The notes under the pieces are model-generated. The model ran no database searches. It was not told where the DNA came from and saw only the letters and a program-made list of their open reading frames with translations. From NCBI RefSeq assembly GCF_009914755.1, contig NC_060936.1: a DNA stretch of 64,000 nt; one strand, given 5' to 3'. Below, one piece after another: positions 4,243-54,737 of the stretch. How positions within the stretch are numbered: position 1 is the first letter of the stretch; every line of letters starts with the position of its first letter. The DNA is from the human T2T-CHM13v2.0 reference genome, Homo sapiens. A program made the position numbers and the translations under genes.

Positions 4243-5040
4243 TGTTATGATATATATTTTCATCCGTGGTTCCTGGCTCATAATTCCCGTAGCCCTTGTT
4301 AACAGTCTTCTGTTATAAGGTTGGAGGTGTTAGGTCTCAGGGGCAGGCTTCTGACCTTCTGCCCTCCTTTCACCTGCCTCAATGCAGGACTCCAAAGCTC
4401 CCCTCCTTTCTGGTTGTGGGTCTTAAGTCCCTCTCATGAAAGAGTCCCGCCCTATACCCTTGGGGAAGGAATGCTGACATCATGAAGCTTCCATAGACCC
4501 CAAGACGGCAGCGTTCAGTGAGCTTCCAGATAGGTGCATACGCGGAGGTTCCTGGAGGGTGGTGCACCTAGGGAGGGCATAGAAGCTCCATGCCCCTTCC
4601 CCCAAATCTCACCCTACACATCTCTTCATTTGTATCCTTTGTGATATCCTTTATAATAAACTGGTAAACATAAGTAAGTGTTTCCCTGAGCTCTGTGAGC
4701 CACTCCAGCAAACTAATCAAACCCAAAGAGGGGGTCATGGGAACCCCAACTTGAAGCTAGTCCATTGGAAGTTCTGACGGCCTGGACTTGCAACTGGTGT
4801 GTTGGGGGCAGAGAGGGGGCCAGTCATGGGGACTGAGCCTTCAACCTGTGGCATCTGACACTATCTCCGGGTAGTAGTGTCAGAACTGAATTAGAGGGCA
4901 TGCAGCTGGTGTCTGCTGCTTGGTGTGTGGGGAAAATAAAGCCACACATTTGGTCACAAAAGCCTTCTTCTGTGTTGATGACTCTTGTGGTGTGAGAGTA
5001 GAAGAAAAACATGGTTTGAGAAGAGTTTTTTCCTGTACAC
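4243..5040 (+). mobile_element. MER21B-like solo LTR
   Basis: Starts tgttatgatatat..catccgtggttcctggctcataa, ends gagtttttcctgtacac; internal AATAAA near 4654. Confidence 0.8.
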
Positions 5041-20721: not shown

Positions 20722-21046
20722 GCAATCATGTGCTGTGTAATGATGTTTTGTTAATGATGGACTGTACATATGATGGTGGTCCTATAAGATTATGATGGAG
20801 CTGAAAAATTCCTGTCTCCTAGTGAAGTAGTAGCCATTATAACATTGTTGCACAATGCATTACTCACCTGTTTGTGGTAATGATGGTGTAAACAAACCTA
20901 CTGTGCTGCCAGTCATATAAAAGTATAGCACGTACAATTGCATATAGTATATAATAATAATAACTGTTACTAGTTTATGTATTTACTATATTATACTTTT
21001 ATTATTTTAGAGTGTACATGTTTTACTTGTTGAAAAGTTAACTATA
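20722..21046 (+). mobile_element. Tigger3/MER7-like DNA transposon, left part only
   Basis: caatcatgtgctgtgtaatgatgtt..ggtggtcctataagattat..aacaaacctactgtgctgccagtc. Confidence 0.8.
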
Positions 21047-33479: not shown

Positions 33480-33935
33480 TGCCCAGGCTTGCTTAGGTAA
33501 ACAAAGCAGCCAGGAAGCTCGAACTGGGTGGAGCCCACCACAGTTCAAGGATGCCTCCCTGCCTCTATAGGCTCCACCTCTGGGGGCAGGGCACAGACAA
33601 ACAAAAAGACAACAGTAACCTCTGCAGACTTAAATGTCCCTGTCTGACAGCTTTGAAGAGAGTAGTGGTTCTCCCAGCACACAGCTGGAGATCTGAGAAC
33701 GGGCAGACTGCCTCCTCAAGTGGGTCCCTGACCCCTGACCCCCAAGCAGCCTAACTGGGAGGCACCCCCCCAGCAGGGGCAGACTGACACCTCACACGGC
33801 CAGGTACTCCAACAGACCTGCAGCTGAGGGTCCTGTCTGCTAGAAAGAAAACTAACAAACAGAAAGGACATCCACACCAAAAACCCATCTGTACATCACC
33901 ATCATCAAAGACCAAAAGTAGATAAAACCACAAAG

Positions 33936-34952
33936 ATGGGGAAAAAACAGAACAGAAAAACTGGAAGCTCTAAAAAGCAGAGCGCCTCTCCTCCTCCAAA
34001 GGATCGCAGTTCCTCATCAGCAACGGAACAAAGCTGGATGGAGAATGACTTTGACGAGCTGAGAGAAGAAGGCTTCAGACGATCAAATTACTCTGAGCTA
34101 CGGGAGGAAATTCAAACCAAAGGCAAAGAAGTTGAAAACTTTGAAAAAAATTTAGAAGAATGTATAACTAGAATAACCAATACGGAGAAGTGCTTAAAGG
34201 AGCTGATGGAGCTGAAAACCTAGGCTCGAGAACTACGTGAACAATGCAGAAGCCTCAGGAGCCGATGCGATCAACTGGAAGAAAGGGTATCAGTGATGGA
34301 AGATGAAGTGAATGAAATGAAGCAAGAAGGGAAGTTTAGAGAAAAAAGAATAAAAAGAAACGAGCAAAGCCTCCAAGAAATATGGGACTATGTGAAAAGA
34401 CCAAATCTACGTCTGATTGGTGTACCTGAAAGTGATGGGGAGAATGGAACCAAGTTGGAAAACACTCTGCAGGATATTATCCAGGAGAACTTCCCCAATC
34501 TAGCAAAGCAGGCCAACATTCAGACTCAGTAAATACAGAGAACGCCACAAAGATACTCCTTGAGAAGAGCAACTCCAAGACACATAATTGTCAGATTCAC
34601 CAAAGTTGAAATGAAGGAAAAAATGTTAAGGGCAGCCAGAGAGAAAGGACGGGTTACCCACAAAGGGAAGCCCATCAGACTAACAGCGGATCTCTCAGCA
34701 GAAATTCTACAAGCCAGAAGAGAGTGGAGGCCAATATTCAACATTCTTAAAGAAAAGAATTTTCAACCCAGAATTTCAGATCCAGCCAAACTAAGCTTCA
34801 TAAGTAAGGGAGAAATAAAATCCTTTACAGACAAGCAAATGCTGAGAGATTTTGTCACCACCAGGCCTGTCCTAAAAGAGCTCCTGAAGGAAGCGCTAAA
34901 CATGGAAAGGAACAACCGGTACCAGCCGCTGCAAAATCATGCCAAAATGTAA
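33936..34952 (+). pseudogene. L1 ORF1p, disrupted
   Basis: MGKKQNRK...LQNHAKM with in-frame stops at 34221-34223 (TAG) and 34530-34532 (TAA). Confidence 0.96.
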
Positions 34953-35015
34953 AGACCATCGAGACTAGGAAGAAACTGCATCAACTAACGAGCAAAATAA
35001 CCAGCTAACATCAGA

Positions 35016-38835
<3,820 letters not shown>

Positions 38836-39812
38836 ACAATGAGAACACATGGACATAGGAAGGGGAACATCATGCTCTGGGGACTGTTGTGGGGTGGGGG
38901 GAGGGGGGAGGGATAGCATTGGGAGATATACGTAATGCTAGATGATGAGTTAGTGGGTGCAGCACACCAGCATGGCACATGTATACATATGTAACTAACT
39001 TGCACATTGTGCACATGTACCCTAAAACTCAAAGTATAATAATAAATAAATAAATAAATAAGAAGTCATGATAATTAATTGATGACATTTGTAATTTTCT
39101 TCTTTATAGAAATCATCTGCAGAGCTGGTAAACTAAAAAAACAAAAAACAACAACAACAAAAACCCTGAAGTATAAGCAATCAGGCAGCCATTAATTTTA
39201 GTACACAGGTCACTCTGACATTACATGAAAAAAAAGAAGCTACAAATCATCAGGGTACATTTAAAGATCATTGCCATTTTCATAGTCAACTTTAGGTACA
39301 TTTAATATACATTAAGATCCTTGGGTAATTTGCAAGATTGAAAGGACTACAGACCAGTTTTCCTAAAGAAAATTGGATGCTGGCCTGTGAAATTCATACC
39401 TGTCAATTTGTAGGAATTGTACACTACATATGGTGCATGACATCAATTTTCAATGGACCAGATCAACTTTGAGTTGCATCATGATTATGCTATTGCCATT
39501 TACATGCAACCAGCTTTGATTTCCGGCAGCTGTTAGAACAACGTGTACCGTACCATAATTAAGTAAAGATCGCACAATTGTAGGGCCTATTTTTCCACCA
39601 CAGTATCATTTATATTTTTGGAAGTAAAAAAACATTAAAAACTGACACGATTATAGACAAAATATTCAAGGATCAATATAATACATTCAAATTTGAGTAT
39701 CGTATTCTCTTTACCACTAAATTTTGCTGGTGAAACACTAATACTACAACATTATGAGTCAGGAATTTCTAAAATATAGCCCCTTTTGGCTCTTTGTCCT
39801 TCTTATTCTTAG

Positions 39813-47779: not shown

Positions 47780-48076
47780 CTCTTGAATTGTTCTTCTCAT
47801 CTTTTAGGTCTCAGCTTAAATGTGTGGTCCTCAAAAAGATATGCTCTGCTTATCTTATTCAAAATAGGCCCACTCGTTTACTCTTCATCAAATCACCTTA
47901 TTTTCATCATAGCAGTTATCATGATCTTTTATTATATTCTTTGTTTTTCTTCCTCAGACAGGAATATAAACTGACGACAGAGACCTTGTCTGCCCACTTA
48001 CTCATCTATTTCTACCACCTAAGCAGTGTCTGGCTCATAGCGGTCATTTGACAAAGATAATAGAATAAATAAATGA
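47780..48076 (+). mobile_element. L2 3' end fragment
   Basis: aggtctcagcttaaatgt..cctaagcagtgtctggctcatag..gaataaataaatga. Confidence 0.65.
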
Positions 48077-48080
48077 GGAC

Positions 48081-48380
48081 TGGCTGGGCATGGTGGCTTA
48101 CACCTATAATCCCATCATTTGGGGATGCTAAGATGGAAGTATTGCTTAAGGTCAGGAGTTTGAGACCAGCCTGGGAAACATAGTGAGATGCCGCTCTCTA
48201 CAAAAATAAAATAATTAACTGAGCATGGTGGCATGTGCCTATAGTCCTAGCTACTTGGGAGAAATGCTTGAACCCAGGAGTTTAAGGGTGCAATGAGGTA
48301 TGGTCATGCCACTGCAGTCCAGCCTGGGTGACAGAACAAGACCCTGCCTCTTAACAGCAACAACAACGACGACAACAAAA
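48081..48380 (+). mobile_element. AluJ with (AAC)n-like tail
   Basis: Diverged dimer. Confidence 0.9.
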
Positions 48381-48659
48381 AGTGGACCACACGTTGAATC
48401 CCTTTTGTGCCTTTGATATTTCTGCTTCCAATAATATAGTTTCTAGAGACAAATGATACTATTGGAGTATATTAATTATTTTCACCATACATATAAATTA
48501 AGAGTGCCAAAGCATCAAAGAAGACTATAATTTACTCTAATCAAATACTGATATACTTTTCTTAAAATATGAATCAACAGTGCCATCTATTCCAATTTCT
48601 AGTAACCTTCTCCCTTGAATCCTTTTGGAGGTGTTAATAAGTTTAAAAACAGGAGAGTA

Positions 48660-50883
48660 CACCCCTCATGCTAAAAAAAGACCCAAAAAACTAGGTATTG
48701 ATGGAACATATCTCAAAATAATAAGAGCTATTTATGACAAACCCACAGCAAATATACTGAATGGGCAAAAGCTGGAAGCATTCTCTTTGAAAACTGGCAC
48801 AACACAAGGATGCCCTCTGTCACCACTCCTATTCAACATAGTACTGGAAGTTCTGGCCAGGGCAGTCAGGCAAGAGAAAGAAATAAAGGTTATTCAAATA
48901 GGAAGAGAGGAAGTCAAATTGTCTCTGTTTGCAGATGACATGATTTTATATTTAGAAAACCCCATCATCTCAGCCCAAAATCTCCTTAAGCTGATAAGCA
49001 ACTTCAGCAAAGTCTCAGGATACAAAATCAACCTACAGAAATCACAAGCATTCCTATACATCAATAATAGACAAACAGAGAGCCAAATCATGAGCAAACT
49101 CCCATTCACAATTGCTACAAAGAGAATAAAATACCAAGGAATACAACTTACAAGGGATGTGAAGGACCTCTTCAAGAAGAACTACAAACCACTGCTCAAG
49201 GAAATGAGGGAGGACACAAACAAATGGAAAAACATTCCATGCTCATGGATAGGAAGAAGCAATATTGTGAAAATGGCCATACTGCCCAAAGTAATTTATA
49301 GATTCAATGCCATCCCCATCAAGCTACCATTGACTTTCTTCACAGAATTGGAAAAAAAATACTTTAAATTTCATATGGAACCAAAAGAGAGCCTGTATAG
49401 CCAAGACAATCCTAAGCAAAAAGAACAAAGCTGGAGGCATCACACTACCTGACTTCAAACTATACTACAAGGCTACAGTAACAAAAAAACCGTGGTACTT
49501 GTACTAAAACATCTATATATATATTAATGGAACAGAACAGAGGCCTCAGAAATAACATCACACATCTACAACCACCTGATCTTTAATAAACCTGACAAAA
49601 AACAAGCAATGGGGAAAGGATTTCCTATTTAATAAATGGTGTTGGGAAAAACTGGCTAGCTATATGCAGAAAACTGAAACTGGACCCCTTCCTTACACCT
49701 TAAACAAAAATTAACTCAAGATGGATTAAAGACTCAAACATAAGACCTAAAACCATAAAAACCCTAGAAGAAAACCTAGGCAATATTCAGGACATAGGCA
49801 TGGGCAAAGACTTCATGACTAAAACACCAAAAGCAATGGCAACAAAAGCAAAAATTGACAAATGGGATGTAATTAAACTAAAGAGCTTCTGCACAGCAAA
49901 ACAAACTATCATCAGAGTGAACAGGCAACCTACAAAATGGGAGAAAATTTTTGCAATCTATCCATCTGATAAAGGTCTAATATCTAGAATCTACAAGGAA
50001 TTTAAACAAATTTACAAGAAAAACAAACAACCCCATCAAAAAGTAGGTGAAGGATATGAACAGACACTTCTCAAAAGAAGACATTTATGTGCCCAACAAA
50101 CATATGAACAAAAACTCATCATTACTGGTCATTAGAGAAATGCAAATCAAAACCACAAAGAGATACAATCTCACACCAGTTAGAATGGTGATCATTAAAA
50201 AGTCAGGAAACAACAGATGCTGGAGAGGATGTGGAGAAATAGGAATGCTTTTACACTGTTGGTGGGAGTATAAATTAGTTCAACCATTGTTGAAGACTGT
50301 GGTGATTCCTCAAGGATCTAAAATTAGAAATACCACTTGACCCAGCAATCCCATTACTGGGTATATACCCAAAGGATTATAAATCATTTTACTCTAAAGA
50401 CACATGCACATGTATGTTTAGTTTATTGCAGCACTATTCACAGTAACAAAGACTTGGAACTAATCCAAATGCCCATCAATGTTAGACTGGATAAAGAAAA
50501 TGTGGCACATATACACCATGGGATACTACGCAGCCATAAAAAGAATGAGTTCATGTCGTTTTCAGGGACATGGATGAAGCTGGAAACCATCATTCTCAGC
50601 AAACTAACACAGGAACAGAAAACCAAACACTGCATGTTCTCACTCGTAAGTGGGAGTTGAACAATGAGAATATATAGGGGCACAGAAAGGGGAACATCAC
50701 ACACTGGGACCTGTCAGAGGGTGGGGGCAAGGGGAGGGATAGCATTAGGAGAAATACCTAATGTAGATGATGGGTTGATGGGTGCAGCAAACTACCATGG
50801 CAGATGTACACCCATGTATCAAACCTGAACATTCTGCACATGTATCCTAGAGCTGAAAGTATAATTAAATAAAATAAAAAAAG
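48660..50883 (+). mobile_element. 5'-truncated L1PA7-like element (RT to 3' UTR)
   Basis: ORF2 RT fragments (..LFADDMILY..), 3' UTR and A-rich tail at 50862-50883. Confidence 0.95.
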
Positions 50884-51159
50884 AAAGAAGCTGGCTAAAA
50901 CCCACAGAAACCAAGATGGTGATGAGAGTGACCTTTGGTCGTCCTCACTGCTACAGTCCTACCAATGCCATGACAGTTTACAAATGCCATTGCAATGTCA
51001 GGAAGTTACCCTATATGGTCTAAAAAGGGGAGGCATGAATAATCCACCCCTTGTTAGCATATAATCAAGAAATAACCATAAAAATGGGCAACCAACAGCT
51101 CTGTCTATGGAGTAGCCATTCTTTATTCCTTTACTTTCTTAATAAACTTGGTTTCACTT
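50884..51159 (+). mobile_element. MER41A LTR internal fragment, probably 3'-transduced by the L1
   Basis: aaagaagctggctaaaaccc..caagatgg..aaaaaggggaggcatgaataatcc..AATAAA(51141)cttggtttcactt followed by a tail; no LTR termini. Confidence 0.85.
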
Positions 51160-51163
51160 AAAA

Positions 51164-51206
<43 letters not shown>

Positions 51207-51208
51207 AT
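51160..51208 (+). repeat. (TAAA)n tail-derived microsatellite
   Basis: Directly visible. Confidence 0.95.
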
Positions 51209-51935
51209 ATTGCCATCTTCCAAAGTTTTTATCCCACTGAAAACACTTGAGAAAAAACTGTAAGAGTTTGGGATATTTTCATTTCAAAAATTTATCATTG
51301 GTTTTAAGTTTCTTCAAGGCATGTTTTCCCCTATTGTTTCTGCCTGAATTTGAATATTCCAGAATTCCTTAGAGAATTATATAGTTAGGAAAATCCATCA
51401 GTACTCTAAACTTAAAAACAAAGTTGAAAAAATAATATATGCTGGCCATATATCCATATAAATGTATATATTTCAACTTATCTGTGATTTTTATTTCTTT
51501 GCCTTAATACTAGACATTGGTATAATTAAAAAAACAGGAGAGTAAACTTTTTGGATAAGGTTATGTCAAGGAGATTTAATTTGAAGCATATTTATTTGAG
51601 ACATAAGAGACTGTGTTCATCACATGAACTGTATGATTATGAAATAGGTTTTAATATCAAACAAATTATTTTAATGCAATGTACTCTTTGTGATGATAAT
51701 AGCCTTATTTCCTTGTTGTCATAGGCATTTTTCACTCTATGATTCTCAGTTATTTGTTTATTTAAATAAACTAGCCAATTTGACTTTCAGAGATTGTAGT
51801 GGCTCTTGGAATTTACATCTTTATATTTCTCCAAGCATAAAATCTGAAGTCATTCAATACCTGCTGGAGGTGTAGACATAGTCCAAATTTAAGTATAAAT
51901 CCTAGCATAAGGCAAAAGAAATGTGGGAATCCATG

Positions 51936-52349
51936 TATATTAGGTCATTCTTGCATTGCTATAAAGAAATACCTGAGACTGAGTAATTTTTAAGAAGAGA
52001 TTTAATTGGCTCAAGGTTCTGCAGGCTGTACATGAAGCATAGTGCTGGCATCTGTTTCTGGGGAGGCCTCAGGAAGCTTACAATCATGATGGAAGGTGAA
52101 AGGGGAGCAGGCATCTCACATGGCAGTAGCAGGAGCAAGGGGTGGGGGAGATGCCACACACTTTTAAACAACCAGATCTTCTGTGAACTCAAAGCGACAA
52201 CTCACTCATCACCAATGGGATAGTGACAAGCCATTCATGAGGGATCTGCCCCCATGATTCAAACATCTCCCACTGAGGCACCACCTTTCAATACTGAAGA
52301 CTGCATTTCAACATGAGATTTGGAGAGGACACATATTCAAACCATATCG
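51936..52349 (-). mobile_element. MSTA/MSTB MaLR solo LTR
   Basis: tatattaggtcattcttgcattgctataaagaaatacc...aaaccatatcg; TSD CCATG/TCATG. Confidence 0.88.
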
Positions 52350-54737
52350 TCATGCCAGTTGCATATTCATTCAGTAGGCCCAGAGATTCCCAACCATAGT
52401 GATGAGCTTTGCTGCCCATGAGGCCATAGAGCACATCTGTAGTCAGTCAGGCTCTTACTGGCTGTTAGCCTTTTCTGACCCTCCATTTGTTGCTTTCCCC
52501 ACCATTCTTCTAGATCTTGTCCTTTACTCTTGTTTATACTAATGTACAGCTTATTCTATCCCCCTTTGGACATGCACCATGTATATGAGAAAGATTGGTT
52601 CTAAACACATTGGTCCTTTCATTGTGTTTCCTGTGATTTTAGTCATGGCATCATGCTTTGGATTACTTTTACAAATAAGCCCGTATGAAAAATACAGATA
52701 TCATTGCATTTATATGATTCACTTTGATTTTTGAGTCTCATTTAGAAATAGAGCATTGACATTTTTAGGTGTTCTTATTTTGATGATAGTTCTCTTGGTG
52801 AGTTACTCCATAGTTATCTCACCTCTTATTGAGATATCCTTCTCGTTTCTAATTTTCTTAGGCCCACAGAAATGTCATTAGTATCTTTATTTATACTCAC
52901 AGCATTGTCCAGTACCAGTTCCACAGGGGATCTTATCTAAAATCTAGCCAAACACCAGTGATATCCTATCTCAAACTATCGATTTTCCCTCACTTCATTA
53001 TGATTACCTTTGATTTCCAGTCTTAGCAAATCTCTATTCTCTGTGATAGTGCTGACTACCAAGCTGAGAGGGTTATTTCTGTGATTAAAATTTCATGGTT
53101 TCTTGCATCTGAATTCTTTGCTAGAGAGAACATTGAATATTCTCTGGAGGGAAAAAAAATAGAGCATAACAATTTTTTGTTGCAGAAATTTACCATTACA
53201 AATTCTAGGGAGTGCCCTTTCATTAGTTCTCTCCAGGAGAAATCAAATAATGGTAATAAGCTGCACAGCAAGGTTTTGACAATTTATGTTTATAATAATG
53301 AAATAATACATTTTGCATATACAGAATAATATTTTATCCAGATTTTTATTTCCAGGACCAAATAGAAAATAAAACATTTGAAACAATTAAAACAAGAATA
53401 TTCTATGAAAAATTGAGTCCTACATTGTGCTATTTCTGGTCCCTCTATGGTTTATTGACCCTGCTAATATAATCATGTTTTTTTAGCCTTTAAAAAATAA
53501 GCCATTTTTTGTGCAATTAAGAATTTAGAGGGATATTATAAATTGAACTAATAATCCTCAATTTTCTGATCAAAGCAATAATAATTTCTTATAATCCTAA
53601 TGTGTGGTTAATTCTATGTTATATACTCTAAAGAAATACATGGTCTTTGTTGCTGCAAGTTTCATAACTTTGACAAGAAAGCAAGTAAAAAGAGAAGTCA
53701 TACACACACACACATATATATAAAATAAAGTTCTTATTTTATAGCATAAAAACAGCAAAATTAAAAATATTCTGTATGCTGGAATCCTATAGAGGCATTA
53801 ATGGAGGGGTGTGAGATTTTGATTGGCCTTAGAGTATAGGAGTTAAGTTAATGGGTGGGTGAAGAAGGAAGAGCAGAGGACACAGTAGAGGAGAGGTTAG
53901 TATCCATCAAAAGATATGCCAGCTCCTTTCACCTAGGACTGCAGATCTTTGTCTAACCCTCAAATTTTGTTGGACAAACTCTTTGTGATATGTATAGAGT
54001 TCTCTTGAGCGCTGTAGGGTTTTAAGTTTCTTGTTTTTCTTAGAAATGGATGGGCTTGCTGAGGTGATTTATACCAAGTGAATTAGACCAAGTTCAGTGA
54101 TGTTCAATTTTGCTCCATGTGTGGACACAGCCATAGCTCTGGAAGTTATTTAGATTTTGTGTCAATAATAGGAGGTTAACTGGTAAGGTCACTTTGTGAT
54201 TCAGAATAGACAGACAAAATGTTCTGAACTGGATAATAAAATACAGCTGGACATGTGACCAAGATTGTTCTCGGGTACTGATATCTGAAACATTTTTTGT
54301 AATGTTGGAGAAAAGCAACAACATAATATGGTGAAATATGACACAGATAAGATTTAACATCTGATGTTGCCATTGTCTGCTTGTAGCACACATCTGACTT
54401 CAAGTAGCTGCAAACAAGAGGAGATTTTTGGAATTGAATAGAGATATTACAGATCCAGTGTCTTCTGGGTAGTCAGGAAACCAATATTTTAGGCTCTTGA
54501 ATTTTGCTTTTTTTTTTTAACCAAAATTTCAGGAGCTAAAGACCCTTCCTGGTATTGTAGTGCAGCTAAGAAAGAAAATAAAAAATAGGAAGAGAGAAAG
54601 AGGATAGAGCTAGAGATAGACAGAGATATAAAGACAGAGAGAAACAGGGAGAATAAGACCACAGGAAAGACAGAGACTGGATGATACATATGTATGGGCT
54701 GTCAGCTCCCTTCCTGAACCTAAACCTAATACTCAGT

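What the first reader, a model, noticed from the sequence alone, without database searches (positions are those of the whole stretch)
48645..51544. L1PA7-like insertion carrying two stacked 3' transductions inside one TSD
Seen in the sequence: the 15-mer AAAAACAGGAGAGTA lies immediately 5' of the truncated L1 (48645-48659, at a ttt/aaaa endonuclease-type site). It does not recur after the L1 tail (50883) but at 51530-51544. Between them the order is L1 3' UTR, tail 1, a MER41A LTR piece with no LTR ends, tail 2 ((TAAA)n), about 320 bp of apparently non-repetitive DNA (51209-51527), a short A run, then the TSD. Established knowledge: L1 read-through of its weak poly(A) signal mobilises flanking DNA (3' transduction). 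Inference: this records a three-generation pedigree. A grandparent L1 sat inside a MER41A, a parent L1 carrying that piece sat at a second locus, and this copy came from the parent.
Basis: partly seen in the sequence, partly recalled or inferred. Interest (0 to 1): 0.8.

Follow-up and report, generated by a model that had tools for sequence, protein, structure and literature searches.

The report
L1 copy with two stacked transductions
A dead L1 jumping-gene copy, roughly 30 million years old, carries two stretches of hitchhiked DNA that trace its parent to chromosome 2 and its grandparent to the X chromosome; it is a clean example of a known process.

Summary
The 15-mer is exact at 48645-48659 and 51530-51544. 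Between the two copies lie a 5'-truncated L1, an A-rich tail, a 276-nt internal piece of an LTR, (AAAT)12, about 320 nt of unmasked DNA and a short A run.

The pedigree reading is supported, because the predicted source loci exist in the same genome:
- **Parent, chr2:209.968-209.976 Mb.** A roughly 6.4-kb L1 carries the same LTR piece. Its own target-site duplication (TSD) lies before "tag 2", and its flank runs on past the chr12 end point.
- **Grandparent, chrX:83.237-83.242 Mb.** An L1 sits inside a complete LTR that runs on past the point where the piece ends.
- **Sibling, chr8:76.196-76.201 Mb.** It has a longer tag 2.
- **Tag-1-only relative, chr15:34.988-34.989 Mb**.

Both tags end 13-16 nt after an AATAAA; for tag 1 this is the LTR's own signal.

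From print, the LTR is MER41A-type. Divergence gives about 25-45 Myr. That fits L1PA7, but the subfamily was not tested.

Limits: no outgroup genomes were available, the clock is imperfect, and the chrX link depends on an inferred 11-nt loss. This is a known kind of event, of modest interest.

The parts
48645..48659 (+). 5' copy of the 15-bp target-site duplication, at a TTT/AAAAA site
   Evidence: Exact repeat of 51530-51544; sequence read.
48660..50865 (+). 5'-truncated L1 body. It holds the C-terminal part of ORF2, from about ORF2p residue 613 to about 1274, plus the 3' UTR. ORF2 is broken: four open pieces of at least 45 codons alternate between two frames, so there are at least 3 frame changes and at least 3 stops (a lower bound, not a full count). 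The 5' UTR, ORF1, the endonuclease domain and the first part of the reverse transcriptase are absent.
   Evidence: each open piece searched on its own; PDB 8uw3_A LINE-1 ORF2p; Pfam RVT_1. Colinear with the chr2, chr8 and chrX L1 copies.
50866..50883 (+). Tail 1: the A-rich tract that followed the grandparent L1 in the genome and was copied as part of the read-through RNA.
   Evidence: Read. The same position is A-rich in the chr2, chr8, chr15 and chrX copies.
50884..51159 (+). Tag 1: an internal piece of a MER41A-type LTR, unit positions about 176-463 of about 553. It lacks both LTR ends, holds the LTR's AATAAA at 51141-51146 and stops 13 nt after it. The chr12 copy has a private 12-nt gap.
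   Evidence: 7 of 7 generic copies span about 553 nt; naming from print.
51160..51200 (+). Remnant of the poly(A) tail of the RNA that made the chr2 parent. With the adjoining TSD it has grown into (AAAT)12 at chr12; chr2 and chr8 have 3-4 units.
   Evidence: TRF, 51161-51209, 12.2 copies; alignments.
51201..51213 (+). Copy of the chr2 parent's 3' target-site duplication (AAATAAATATTGC). This is the first bases of tag 2.
   Evidence: The chr2 5' flank reads AAATAAATACTGC just before the L1 start. The chr2 3' copy reads AAATAAATATTGC after the A run. 12 of 13 positions agree.
51214..51527 (+). Tag 2: flank of the chr2 parent, not masked as repeat. It holds the decayed poly(A) hexamer at 51506-51511 (AATACT here, AATAAA at chr2 and chr8). 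The last templated base lies 16 nt after the hexamer.
51528..51529 (+). Residual poly(A) tail: 2 A, or up to 7 if the leading A's of the TSD are counted.
51530..51544 (+). 3' copy of the 15-bp target-site duplication.

Best explanation
Window 48660-51529 is one L1 retrotransposition insertion. Its RNA was transcribed from a roughly 6.4-kb L1 at chr2:209.968-209.975 Mb. The transcript ran through the L1's own poly(A) signal, through a MER41A-LTR tag that this L1 already carried (including that tag's AATAAA), and about 330 nt into chr2 flank. It was cleaved about 16 nt after a genomic AATAAA.

Target-primed reverse transcription at a TTT/AAAAA site on chr12 copied the RNA from its 3' end and stopped within the reverse-transcriptase part of ORF2. 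This left a promoter-less copy flanked by a 15-bp duplication.

One generation earlier, the chr2 L1 had come from an L1 nested in sense orientation in a MER41A LTR at chrX:83.237-83.242 Mb. That read-through RNA was cleaved at the LTR's own poly(A) site.

- **Shown:** the anatomy, the colinear source loci, the TSDs, and the positions of the signals.
- **Inferred:** the direction and directness of each step, the 11-nt loss in the chr2 lineage, and the dates.
For: **One insertion at chr12.**
- Exact 15-bp TSD at an endonuclease-type site.
- Homology with chr2 stops at the TSD borders, 48662 and 51522. Flanks do not match apart from short repeat hits.

**chr2 is the source of tag 2.**
- Tag 2 has only 3 genomic loci (4 of 4 candidates scored).
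- At chr2 the L1 reaches a 5' terminus (GGATTCCTGGGCAAG...) that other L1 copies also begin with.
- Its TSD, 12 of 13, brackets only the L1 plus tag 1, so tag 2 begins with the 3' TSD copy.
- The chr2 flank continues beyond the chr12 end point. chr8 shares 156-159 further nt of it, and beyond that the flank is unique to chr2 (2 of 2 candidates).

**Ends fall after poly(A) signals.**
- AATAAA is present at chr2 and chr8, 16 nt before the chr12 end.
- ATTAAA at chr2 lies 23 nt before the chr8 end, which is followed by an A-rich tail.

**chrX is the source of tag 1.**
- The LTR 5' part, then an L1 starting at its 5' terminus, then A18, then the LTR 3' part, which runs about 77 nt past the end of the tag to the LTR's terminal ...TGTAACA.
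- TSD AAAACAGGTTGCA, 12 of 13.

**chr15 copy.** A 5'-truncated L1 with tail 1, tag 1, A15 and its own TSD, 12 of 14.

**Tag 1 ends at the LTR's own signal.** It ends 13-17 nt after the LTR's AATAAA in all four copies, whereas two generic LTR copies run on about 90 nt.

**Shared changes.**
- chr12, chr2 and chr8 share 15 substitutions in 1004 columns and 3 gap runs against chrX plus chr15. The next best split has 6.
- They also share the loss of CAGGTTGCAGT.

**The LTR signal was intact when bypassed.** chr12 and chr8 keep AATAAA in the LTR tag while chr2 now reads AATAGA. The parent's change is therefore later than the read-through.
Against: - **No outgroup test.** No outgroup genome was available, so no empty site was seen for any of the five loci.
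- **Not clock-like.** The parent chr2 has more private changes (117) than the offspring chr12 (84) in 2439 columns. It should have no more.
- **No order for the siblings.** The three four-taxon splits are 12, 10 and 9, so the order of chr12 and chr8 is unresolved.
- **No family-wide marker.** No position was found where all five copies share a state absent from the comparison copies: 0 of 266 columns against 8 generic LTR copies, and 0 of 722 against 4 other L1 3' ends. The common origin of tag 1 in the chr2 lineage and in chrX/chr15 therefore rests on the junction position, which differs by 11 nt and needs an inferred deletion.
- **The junction site is reused.** The same A-rich stretch of the LTR took at least three other independent L1 insertions (chr16, chr18, chr6). 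A second source that is lost or was missed is therefore not far-fetched.
- **Weak chr2 TSD.** It is low-complexity and has a mismatch. An exact k-mer search found nothing longer than 9 nt.
- **Cleavage context inferred.** At chr2 the stretch just after the AATAAA is now replaced by a roughly 570-nt insertion, so the cleavage context is inferred from chr8.
- **chr8 is unclear.** No definable TSD (A-rich on both sides), and a rearranged order that simple twin priming does not give.
- **chrX is no longer whole.** The chrX L1 now has one internal gap of about 2.4 kb relative to chr2. That it was whole when active is assumed.
- **Incomplete searches.** Only 40 of 4799 and 40 of 3156 candidates were scored. 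Each missed one known family member: chrX, chr2. Closed regions are not shown.
Confidence: 0.88

Rival explanations
1. The insertion and the parent are the same, but tag 1 of the chr2 lineage does not come from the chrX locus. It would come from a second L1 that entered another MER41A copy 11 nt further on (junction GT/AAAGAAGC) and is now lost, closed or was missed. chrX would then be the source of the chr15 copy only. Alternatively, unseen intermediate generations lie between the loci found.
For: - chr2, chr8 and chr12 begin tag 1 at AAAGAAGC, whereas chrX and chr15 begin 11-13 nt earlier.
- No state is shared by all five copies to the exclusion of generic copies.
- Three other independent L1 junctions lie within about 45 nt of this spot.
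- In the LTR piece, the chr2 and chr8 copies are 0.17-0.19 from chrX and chr15 but 0.10-0.12 from each other and from chr12.
- 32 of 131 pattern matches were not listed, and chr10:28208124 was not examined.
Against: - Pattern searches for such a 5' junction (39 matches) and 3' junction gave only chrX as a locus with LTR on both sides of a long L1.
- chr6:80435119 has the right 5' junction, but its 5' UTR is only 68% identical to chr2 and there is no LTR after its 3' end.
- chr16 and chr18 hold only about 430-nt and under 100-nt L1 ends.
- An 11-nt loss between two A runs is a small step.
- The chr2 and chrX 5' UTRs align at 80% over 556 columns.
Confidence: 0.12
2. DNA-level copying (segmental duplication or gene conversion) moved a 2.9-kb block from chr2 to chr12. 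The 15-mer repeat would be chance or microhomology.
For: The block is colinear with chr2 at 86.8% over 2896 columns.
Against: - The block starts inside L1 ORF2 and ends 16 nt after a poly(A) hexamer, followed by A's.
- It is bounded by an exact 15-bp direct repeat at a TTT/AAAAA site.
- No flank homology with chr2.
- The chr8 copy ends at a different poly(A) signal with an A-rich tail.
Confidence: 0.02
3. Nested independent events at chr12: an L1 landed beside a pre-existing LTR fragment and native unique DNA, and the 15-mer match is a coincidence.
For: None beyond the bare possibility.
Against: - The same L1 end, tail, LTR piece, AAAT run and 'unique' DNA are joined in the same order at chr2 and, for the first 2.65 kb, at chr8.
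- Tag 2 is native to chr2, where it continues.
- An exact 15-mer recurs only at these two places in the 64 kb.
Confidence: 0.01

Closest known systems
L1 3' transduction: read-through of the weak L1 poly(A) signal, with flank carried to the new site. The founding papers (Moran 1999; Goodier 2000; Pickeral 2000) are recalled and were not seen here. General descriptions were seen in the abstract and passages of PMC9311842.
   Same: Non-L1 DNA lies between the L1 3' end and the final A tail, inside one TSD. The tag is native next to a longer L1 elsewhere. The tag ends after a downstream poly(A) signal.
   Different: This example is ancient and fixed (tens of Myr), not polymorphic or somatic. The first tag is cut by the poly(A) signal of a retroviral LTR that the source L1 had entered.
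L1-Ta transduction family with lineage progenitor -> donor -> de novo insertion (PMC6425141; passages seen).
   Same: A three-generation chain is read from stacked tags, each coloured by its source locus. Several offspring come from one source, and each member has its own TSD.
   Different: That family is human-specific and in part still mobile, with 14 members and experimental support. Here there are 5 loci of about 10-13% mutual divergence, all read from one reference genome.
Twin priming (5' inversion) of L1 insertions. The original paper (Ostertag and Kazazian 2001) is recalled and was not seen. A '5'-inverted' class is named in the abstract of PMC2912911 (listing).
   Same: In the chr8 sibling the middle of the copy is inverted. 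It abuts an A run at its outer end and overlaps the direct 3' part by about 12-21 nt.
   Different: One further L1 segment lies in direct orientation between the inverted and the 3' parts. A single twin-priming event does not produce this.
MER41 LTRs: a primate ERV family that entered 45-60 Myr ago, with 7,190 LTRs (passages of PMC6473030 and PMC9963469).
   Same: The piece matches this LTR family over its whole length and lacks the 43 nt that print gives as the MER41B/MER41A difference.
   Different: It is not a retroviral integration at chr12. It is a 276-nt internal fragment brought in by an L1, without LTR ends and without any TSD of its own.

Membership tests
L1 insertion by target-primed reverse transcription | Target-site duplication flanking the whole insert | tested here: met
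   15 of 15 identical at 48645-48659 and 51530-51544.
L1 insertion by target-primed reverse transcription | Endonuclease-type target (TT/AAAA) and a 3' A tail | tested here: met
   GTTT/AAAAAC at the 5' copy. The A run before the 3' copy is only 2-7 A long.
L1 insertion by target-primed reverse transcription | L1 sequence ending at the L1 3' UTR, usually 5'-truncated | tested here: met
   ORF2p residues about 613-1274, RVT_1, colinear with longer L1 copies.
L1 3' transduction | The tag is native DNA directly downstream of a longer L1 at another locus, where it continues beyond the tag | tested here: met
   - Tag 2 at chr2.
- Tag 1 at chrX.
L1 3' transduction | The tag ends shortly after a poly(A) signal present at the source | tested here: met
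   - AATAAA 16 nt before the end of tag 2 (chr2 and chr8 copies).
- The LTR's AATAAA 13 nt before the end of tag 1.
Serial (stacked) transduction | Two tags in the order of acquisition, each with its own source locus, with the inner tag already present at the source of the outer tag | tested here: met
   The chr2 L1 carries tag 1 inside its own TSD, and tag 2 starts with that TSD. The chrX link depends on an inferred 11-nt loss.
Serial (stacked) transduction | Empty target sites in species that predate each step | not testable with these tools
   No primate genome other than T2T-CHM13 could be reached.
L1PA7 subfamily | Diagnostic positions of the 3' UTR and ORF2 against the subfamily reference | not testable with these tools
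   No repeat library or annotated subfamily names were at hand. I made no consensus.
L1PA7 subfamily | Age near that given in print (about 30 Myr; abstract of bioRxiv 10.1101/2021.04.06.438727) | tested here: inconclusive
   Non-CpG K2P between chr12 and chr2 is 0.105. That is about 0.052 per lineage, or about 31 Myr at a recalled rate of 0.17%/Myr, and 24-44 Myr for 0.12-0.22%/Myr. L1PA6 and L1PA8 are not excluded.
MER41A LTR | Full-length similarity to an LTR that print names MER41A | tested here: met
   The 553-nt unit aligns at positions 3-544 (85.7%), and the chr12 piece at 1-276 (83.8%), to the sense LTR about 1.9-2.4 kb upstream of BBS10 (name from PMC6473030 Table 3). Of the other four genes that print lists with MER41A, three gave no match and one gave 57 nt, each in my 10-kb cut.
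MER41A LTR | Lacks the 43 bp that MER41B has (PMC9963469 passage) | tested here: met
   The LTR at CEP290 (MER41B in print) holds exactly 43 extra nt between piece positions 150 and 151, with one TTCNNNGAA-type motif.
MER41A LTR | Retroviral integration at this site (LTR ends TG..CA, own short TSD) | tested here: not met
   The piece covers unit positions about 176-463 of about 553 and has neither LTR end. It arrived inside an L1 RNA.
Segmental duplication | Homology extends into the flanks, with no poly(A) or TSD ends | tested here: not met
   Homology with chr2 stops at 48662 and 51522.

The most novel reading that the evidence does not exclude
This may be a fully preserved three-generation fossil of one L1 master lineage from the early catarrhine period. 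Grandparent, parent and three dead offspring or relatives are all still in the reference genome. The substitutions shared by parent and offspring but not by grandparent (about 7 of about 1000 columns polarised to the chr2 side) would then measure how long a single source locus stayed transcribed and productive, on the order of a few million years. The chain would also show an LTR's poly(A) site being used in one generation and read through in the next. Such direct per-locus residence times are not otherwise available for extinct L1 subfamilies.
Probability: 0.3. Interest if true: 0.45.

Novelty: new member of a known kind. Interest (0 to 1): 0.3.

Why it matters
The mechanism, including serial 3' transduction, is established, so nothing here changes how L1 is understood. 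The value is as a worked example.

- A single 2.9-kb insertion could be resolved into five dated pieces.
- Both source loci are still identifiable after roughly 30 Myr.
- A retroviral LTR fragment at chr12 is shown not to be a retroviral integration but cargo, cut at the LTR's own poly(A) site. This is relevant to anyone counting or dating MER41 copies or scoring them as regulatory elements, because at least four MER41A 'copies' (chr12, chr2, chr8, chr15) are L1-borne duplicates of one LTR.
- The shared and private substitutions give a rough relative timing of the generations.

Tried and rejected
**Other L1-in-LTR loci examined as possible grandparents and rejected**
- chr18:5245031. Only a short L1 3' end, 70-76% identical.
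- chr16:5622887. A roughly 430-nt L1 end with its own 24-nt duplication of the LTR.
- chr6:80435119. The 5' junction would fit AAAGAAGC, but the 5' UTR is 68% identical to chr2 over 325 columns, and the DNA after its A10 tail is not LTR.
- chr12:85412902. A 2-mismatch pattern hit with no LTR-like sequence at the expected distance.
- chr10:28208124. A 2-mismatch hit whose letters look like a shortened junction. Not examined.

**Other steps that led nowhere**
- Exact k-mer search for the chr2 TSD: nothing longer than 9 nt. The TSD was then read by eye with one mismatch.
- chr8 TSD: not definable, because both sides are A-rich.
- The upstream L1 at chr8 is a separate copy: 82-86% identical to the overlapping parts of the tagged copy.
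- Family-wide shared states: none found.
- Naming the LTR through AIM2. Print places a MER41B 220 bp upstream of AIM2 (PMC9963469). Neither the 553-nt unit nor the CEP290 LTR matched anything in chr1:158,190,001-158,270,000. A tandem GAS-like element there is not similar by BLAST. I cannot explain this and did not pursue it.
- Khan et al. 2006 (L1PA ages and rate) is not held. The ages cited are from other papers' passages. The 0.17%/Myr rate is recalled.
- Szak et al. 2003 is not in the searchable library (listing only).
- Whether this particular pedigree is in print: two searches showed nothing. They were not built to find single loci, and supplementary tables, where such loci would be listed, are closed.


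Full report
**Observation.** The 15-mer AAAAACAGGAGAGTA is exact at 48645-48659 and 51530-51544. The only other match in the window, allowing up to two mismatches, is a 2-mismatch site at 20861-20875 on the other strand. The shuffle expectation for up to 2 mismatches is 0.42. The first copy follows GTTT, which makes an L1-endonuclease-type site.
- L1 from 48660
- L1 3' end near 50865
- A-rich tail to 50883
- repeat piece, 50884-51159
- (AAAT)12.2 at 51161-51209
- DNA that RefSeq does not mask, up to 51527
- AA
- the second 15-mer

**The L1.** The open pieces of at least 45 codons on the + strand were searched one by one. All four match human LINE-1 ORF2p. Together they reach from about residue 613 to about 1274 of the 1275-residue protein (PDB 8uw3_A and others). 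The first piece also matches Pfam RVT_1. The pieces alternate between two frames, so ORF2 has at least three frame changes and at least three stops. This is a lower bound; I did not make a full count. The copy lacks the 5' UTR, ORF1, the endonuclease domain and the start of the reverse transcriptase, so it could never have copied itself.

**The parent (chr2).**
- The 'unique' 319 nt (51209-51527) match only two other loci: chr2:209974904-209975211 (88%, query 1-314), and chr8 in three pieces (4 of 4 candidates scored).
- BLAST of window 48000-52500 against 9 kb of chr2 gives one colinear alignment, window 48662-51522, at 86.8% over 2896 columns. It starts and stops at the TSD borders, and nothing matches in the flanks except short repeat hits.
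- At chr2 the L1 runs on a further 4.2 kb or so upstream, to a 5' terminus (GGATTCCTGGGCAAGA...) directly after an A-rich flank. The chr8 upstream L1 and several L1 copies listed begin the same way.
- Just before that terminus chr2 reads AAATAAATACTGC. After the L1, tail 1, the LTR piece and a short A run it reads AAATAAATATTGC. This is a 12-of-13 duplication that encloses the L1 plus tag 1 only.
- Tag 2 therefore begins with the parent's 3' TSD copy, and what follows is ordinary chr2 flank. The (AAAT)12 at chr12 is this A tail plus TSD, expanded from the 3-4 units seen at chr2 and chr8.

**Where tag 2 ends.**
- chr2 and chr8 read AATAAA where chr12 now reads AATACT (51506-51511). The last templated base at chr12 lies 16 nt after the hexamer.
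- At chr2 the sequence just after this point has been replaced by a roughly 570-nt fragment that resembles an L1 5' UTR. chr8 keeps about 36 nt there and then shares a further 156-159 nt with chr2.
- chr8 homology ends 23 nt after an ATTAAA (as read at chr2) and is followed by an A-rich tail. chr2 continues as DNA found nowhere else.
- So two different offspring of the chr2 locus used two successive poly(A) signals in its flank.

**The chr8 sibling.**
- It holds the L1 3' part, tail 1, the LTR piece, the AAAT run and the start of tag 2 as one inverted block (window 48659-51314, 87.4%). It then has a shorter L1 segment in direct orientation, then the rest of tag 2 in direct orientation, overlapping the inverted block by about 12-21 nt.
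- The inverted block abuts the A tail of an unrelated L1 (82-86% identical to the overlapping parts).
- This looks like twin priming with one extra switch. I leave it unexplained, and no TSD can be defined.

**The grandparent (chrX) and the chr15 copy.**
- A search with the L1-end/LTR junction (window 50800-51160) scored 40 of 4799 candidates. 4 of the 40 span the junction (chr12 itself, chr8, chr2, chr15), and 36 begin at query 82-90, meaning they are plain LTR copies.
- chr15:34988346-34989444 is a 5'-truncated L1 (from the equivalent of window 50124) with tail 1, the LTR piece, A15 and a 12-of-14 TSD. It has no tag 2.
- A pattern for 'LTR 5' part then L1 5' terminus' (39 matches, 0 in the reversed control) gave two loci with LTR sequence up to the L1 start: chr6:80435119 and chrX:83241713.
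- At chrX, on the minus strand, the order is: LTR 5' part; an L1 beginning at its 5' terminus (80% to the chr2 5' UTR, 86.4% over 3826 columns of the body, one internal gap of about 2.4 kb); A18; then the LTR 3' part. That 3' part runs about 77 nt past the point where the tag ends and reaches the LTR terminus. AAAACAGGTTGCA is duplicated at the two junctions, 12 of 13.
chrX and chr15 keep CAGGTTGCAGT, which chr2, chr8 and chr12 all lack.

**The LTR piece: real, of what family, how old.**
- **Real.** It belongs to an interspersed unit of about 553 nt. 7 of 7 generic copies align to one another from positions 320-328 to 845-878 of locus L013. The piece covers unit positions about 176-463, so it has neither LTR end.
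- **Where it ends.** It stops 13 nt after the unit's AATAAA, while two generic copies run on about 90 nt. It is therefore cut at the LTR's own poly(A) site.
- **Family, named from print.**
  - PMC6473030 (passages and Table 3) lists sense-oriented MER41 LTRs within 2 kb upstream of nine genes. I cut 10 kb around the annotated 5' end of each.
  - The unit matched in 6 of 9 cuts: end to end at BBS10 (print: MER41A; positions 3-544, 85.7%), long partial matches at CEP290 and GCSH (print: MER41B, and MER41B/E), and 57-72 nt at DDHD2, AP1S1 and GAMT. There was no match at SLC25A37, DEAF1 or CDH15.
  - The CEP290 LTR has exactly 43 extra nt between piece positions 150 and 151, with one TTCNNNGAA-type motif. 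PMC9963469 (passage) gives a 43-bp deletion holding the STAT1 site as the difference between MER41A and MER41B.
  - The piece is therefore MER41A-type.
- **Age of the family.** The same passages date the family's entry to 45-60 Myr ago and call it gammaretrovirus-derived. No inner genes were needed or touched.
- **Unexplained miss.** The AIM2 region gave no match.
- **Status at chr12.** The piece is not an integration. It is cargo.

**Dating.**
- Substitution-only distances among the five copies over shared columns are 0.099-0.135. For chr12 against chr2, non-CpG K2P is 0.105 over 2556 sites. Half of that is 0.052. At a recalled 0.17%/Myr this gives about 31 Myr, and 24-44 Myr for 0.12-0.22%/Myr.
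- Ages in print: L1PA5 20.4 Myr (PMC5237266 passages); L1PA7 about 30 Myr (abstract of bioRxiv 10.1101/2021.04.06.438727); L1PA8 about 40 Ma and L1PA4 about 18 Ma (PMC3525338 legend passage).
- The age fits 'L1PA7-like', but subfamily membership itself was not tested.
- The MER41 entry date is an upper bound for the whole chain.

**Relationships from sequence.**
- In 1004 columns shared by all five copies, the split {chr12, chr2, chr8} against {chrX, chr15} has 15 sites and 3 shared gap runs. The next best split has 6.
- Within the LTR piece, 9 such sites were polarised with 8 generic copies: 5 derived on the chr2 side, 3 on the chrX/chr15 side, 1 tied. In the L1 end, 5 sites were polarised with 4 other L1 ends: 2, 2 and 1 in the same order.
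- Changes thus accumulated at chr2 before it gave rise to chr12 and chr8, and at chrX before chr15 was made.

**Results that do not help my reading.**
- The three four-taxon splits are 12, 10 and 9, which resolves nothing.
- Private changes are chr12 84, chr8 106, chr2 117 and chrX 121 of 2439 columns. The parent exceeds its offspring.
- No column has a state shared by all five copies and absent from the comparison copies (0 of 266; 0 of 722).
- The tie between the chr2 lineage and chrX is therefore the junction alone, with an 11-nt difference. The same stretch of the LTR has taken at least three other L1 insertions (chr16, chr18, chr6).
- I put the chrX step at about 0.75-0.8, and the chr2 step and the single-insertion reading at about 0.9 or more.

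**Comparison with what is known.**
- This works as, and is, an L1 3' transduction repeated in two successive generations. All features testable here were met (see Membership tests). The empty-site test was not possible.
- Population-scale maps of transductions also exist (PMC9311842).
- This one differs only in age and fixation, and in the first tag being cut by an LTR's own poly(A) signal. It is a new member of a known kind.

**Not done.**
- Outgroup orthologues and repeat-library naming.
- chr10:28208124 and the 32 unlisted matches.
- A full count of ORF2 breaks.
- Any look at the coding state of the chr2 or chrX L1 copies. This was not needed for the question.
- Supplementary tables of the transduction papers, which might list these loci, are closed.

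Noticed in passing
L006 6213-6786 (chr2:209975212-209975785): A roughly 570-nt fragment resembling an L1 5' UTR, with no L1 body or 3' end, sits in the parent's flank just after the AATAAA that the chr12 copy used. It replaces about 36 nt that the chr8 copy still holds. The insertion came with a small deletion and is later than both offspring.
   Followed up: partly
L007 5606 to L008 2850 (chr8:76195605-76200850): The chr8 sibling has its middle part inverted and moved in front of a direct L1 segment. It abuts the A tail of an unrelated L1. This looks like twin priming with an extra switch. No TSD is definable.
   Followed up: partly
MER41A unit positions about 150-200; loci chrX:83241713, chr16:5622887, chr18:5245031, chr6:80435119: Four independent L1 junctions fall within about 45 nt of one another in the A-rich stretch (…GATAAAACAGG…GTAAAGAAGC…) of different copies of this LTR. 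This may be a preferred L1 endonuclease target.
   Followed up: partly
window 33621-39054: A long L1 (at least 5.3 kb, reaching into the 5' UTR) aligns to the chr2 parent at 84.6%. It is not part of the tagged family.
   Followed up: no
L049 about 4330-4400 (chr1:158214330-158214400, AIM2 gene region): A tandem pair of GAS-like motifs lies in an element that BLAST does not link to the MER41 units used here. No copy of those units was found in 80 kb around AIM2, although print places a MER41B 220 bp upstream of the gene.
   Followed up: partly
chr10:28208124-28208194: A pattern hit whose letters look like an L1 end, a long A-rich tail and a shortened start of the LTR tag. It may be a further family member.
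   Followed up: no
window 51098-51100 region versus chr2, chr8, chr15, chrX: The chr12 LTR piece has a private 12-nt gap that the other four copies and one of the two generic copies do not have.
   Followed up: yes
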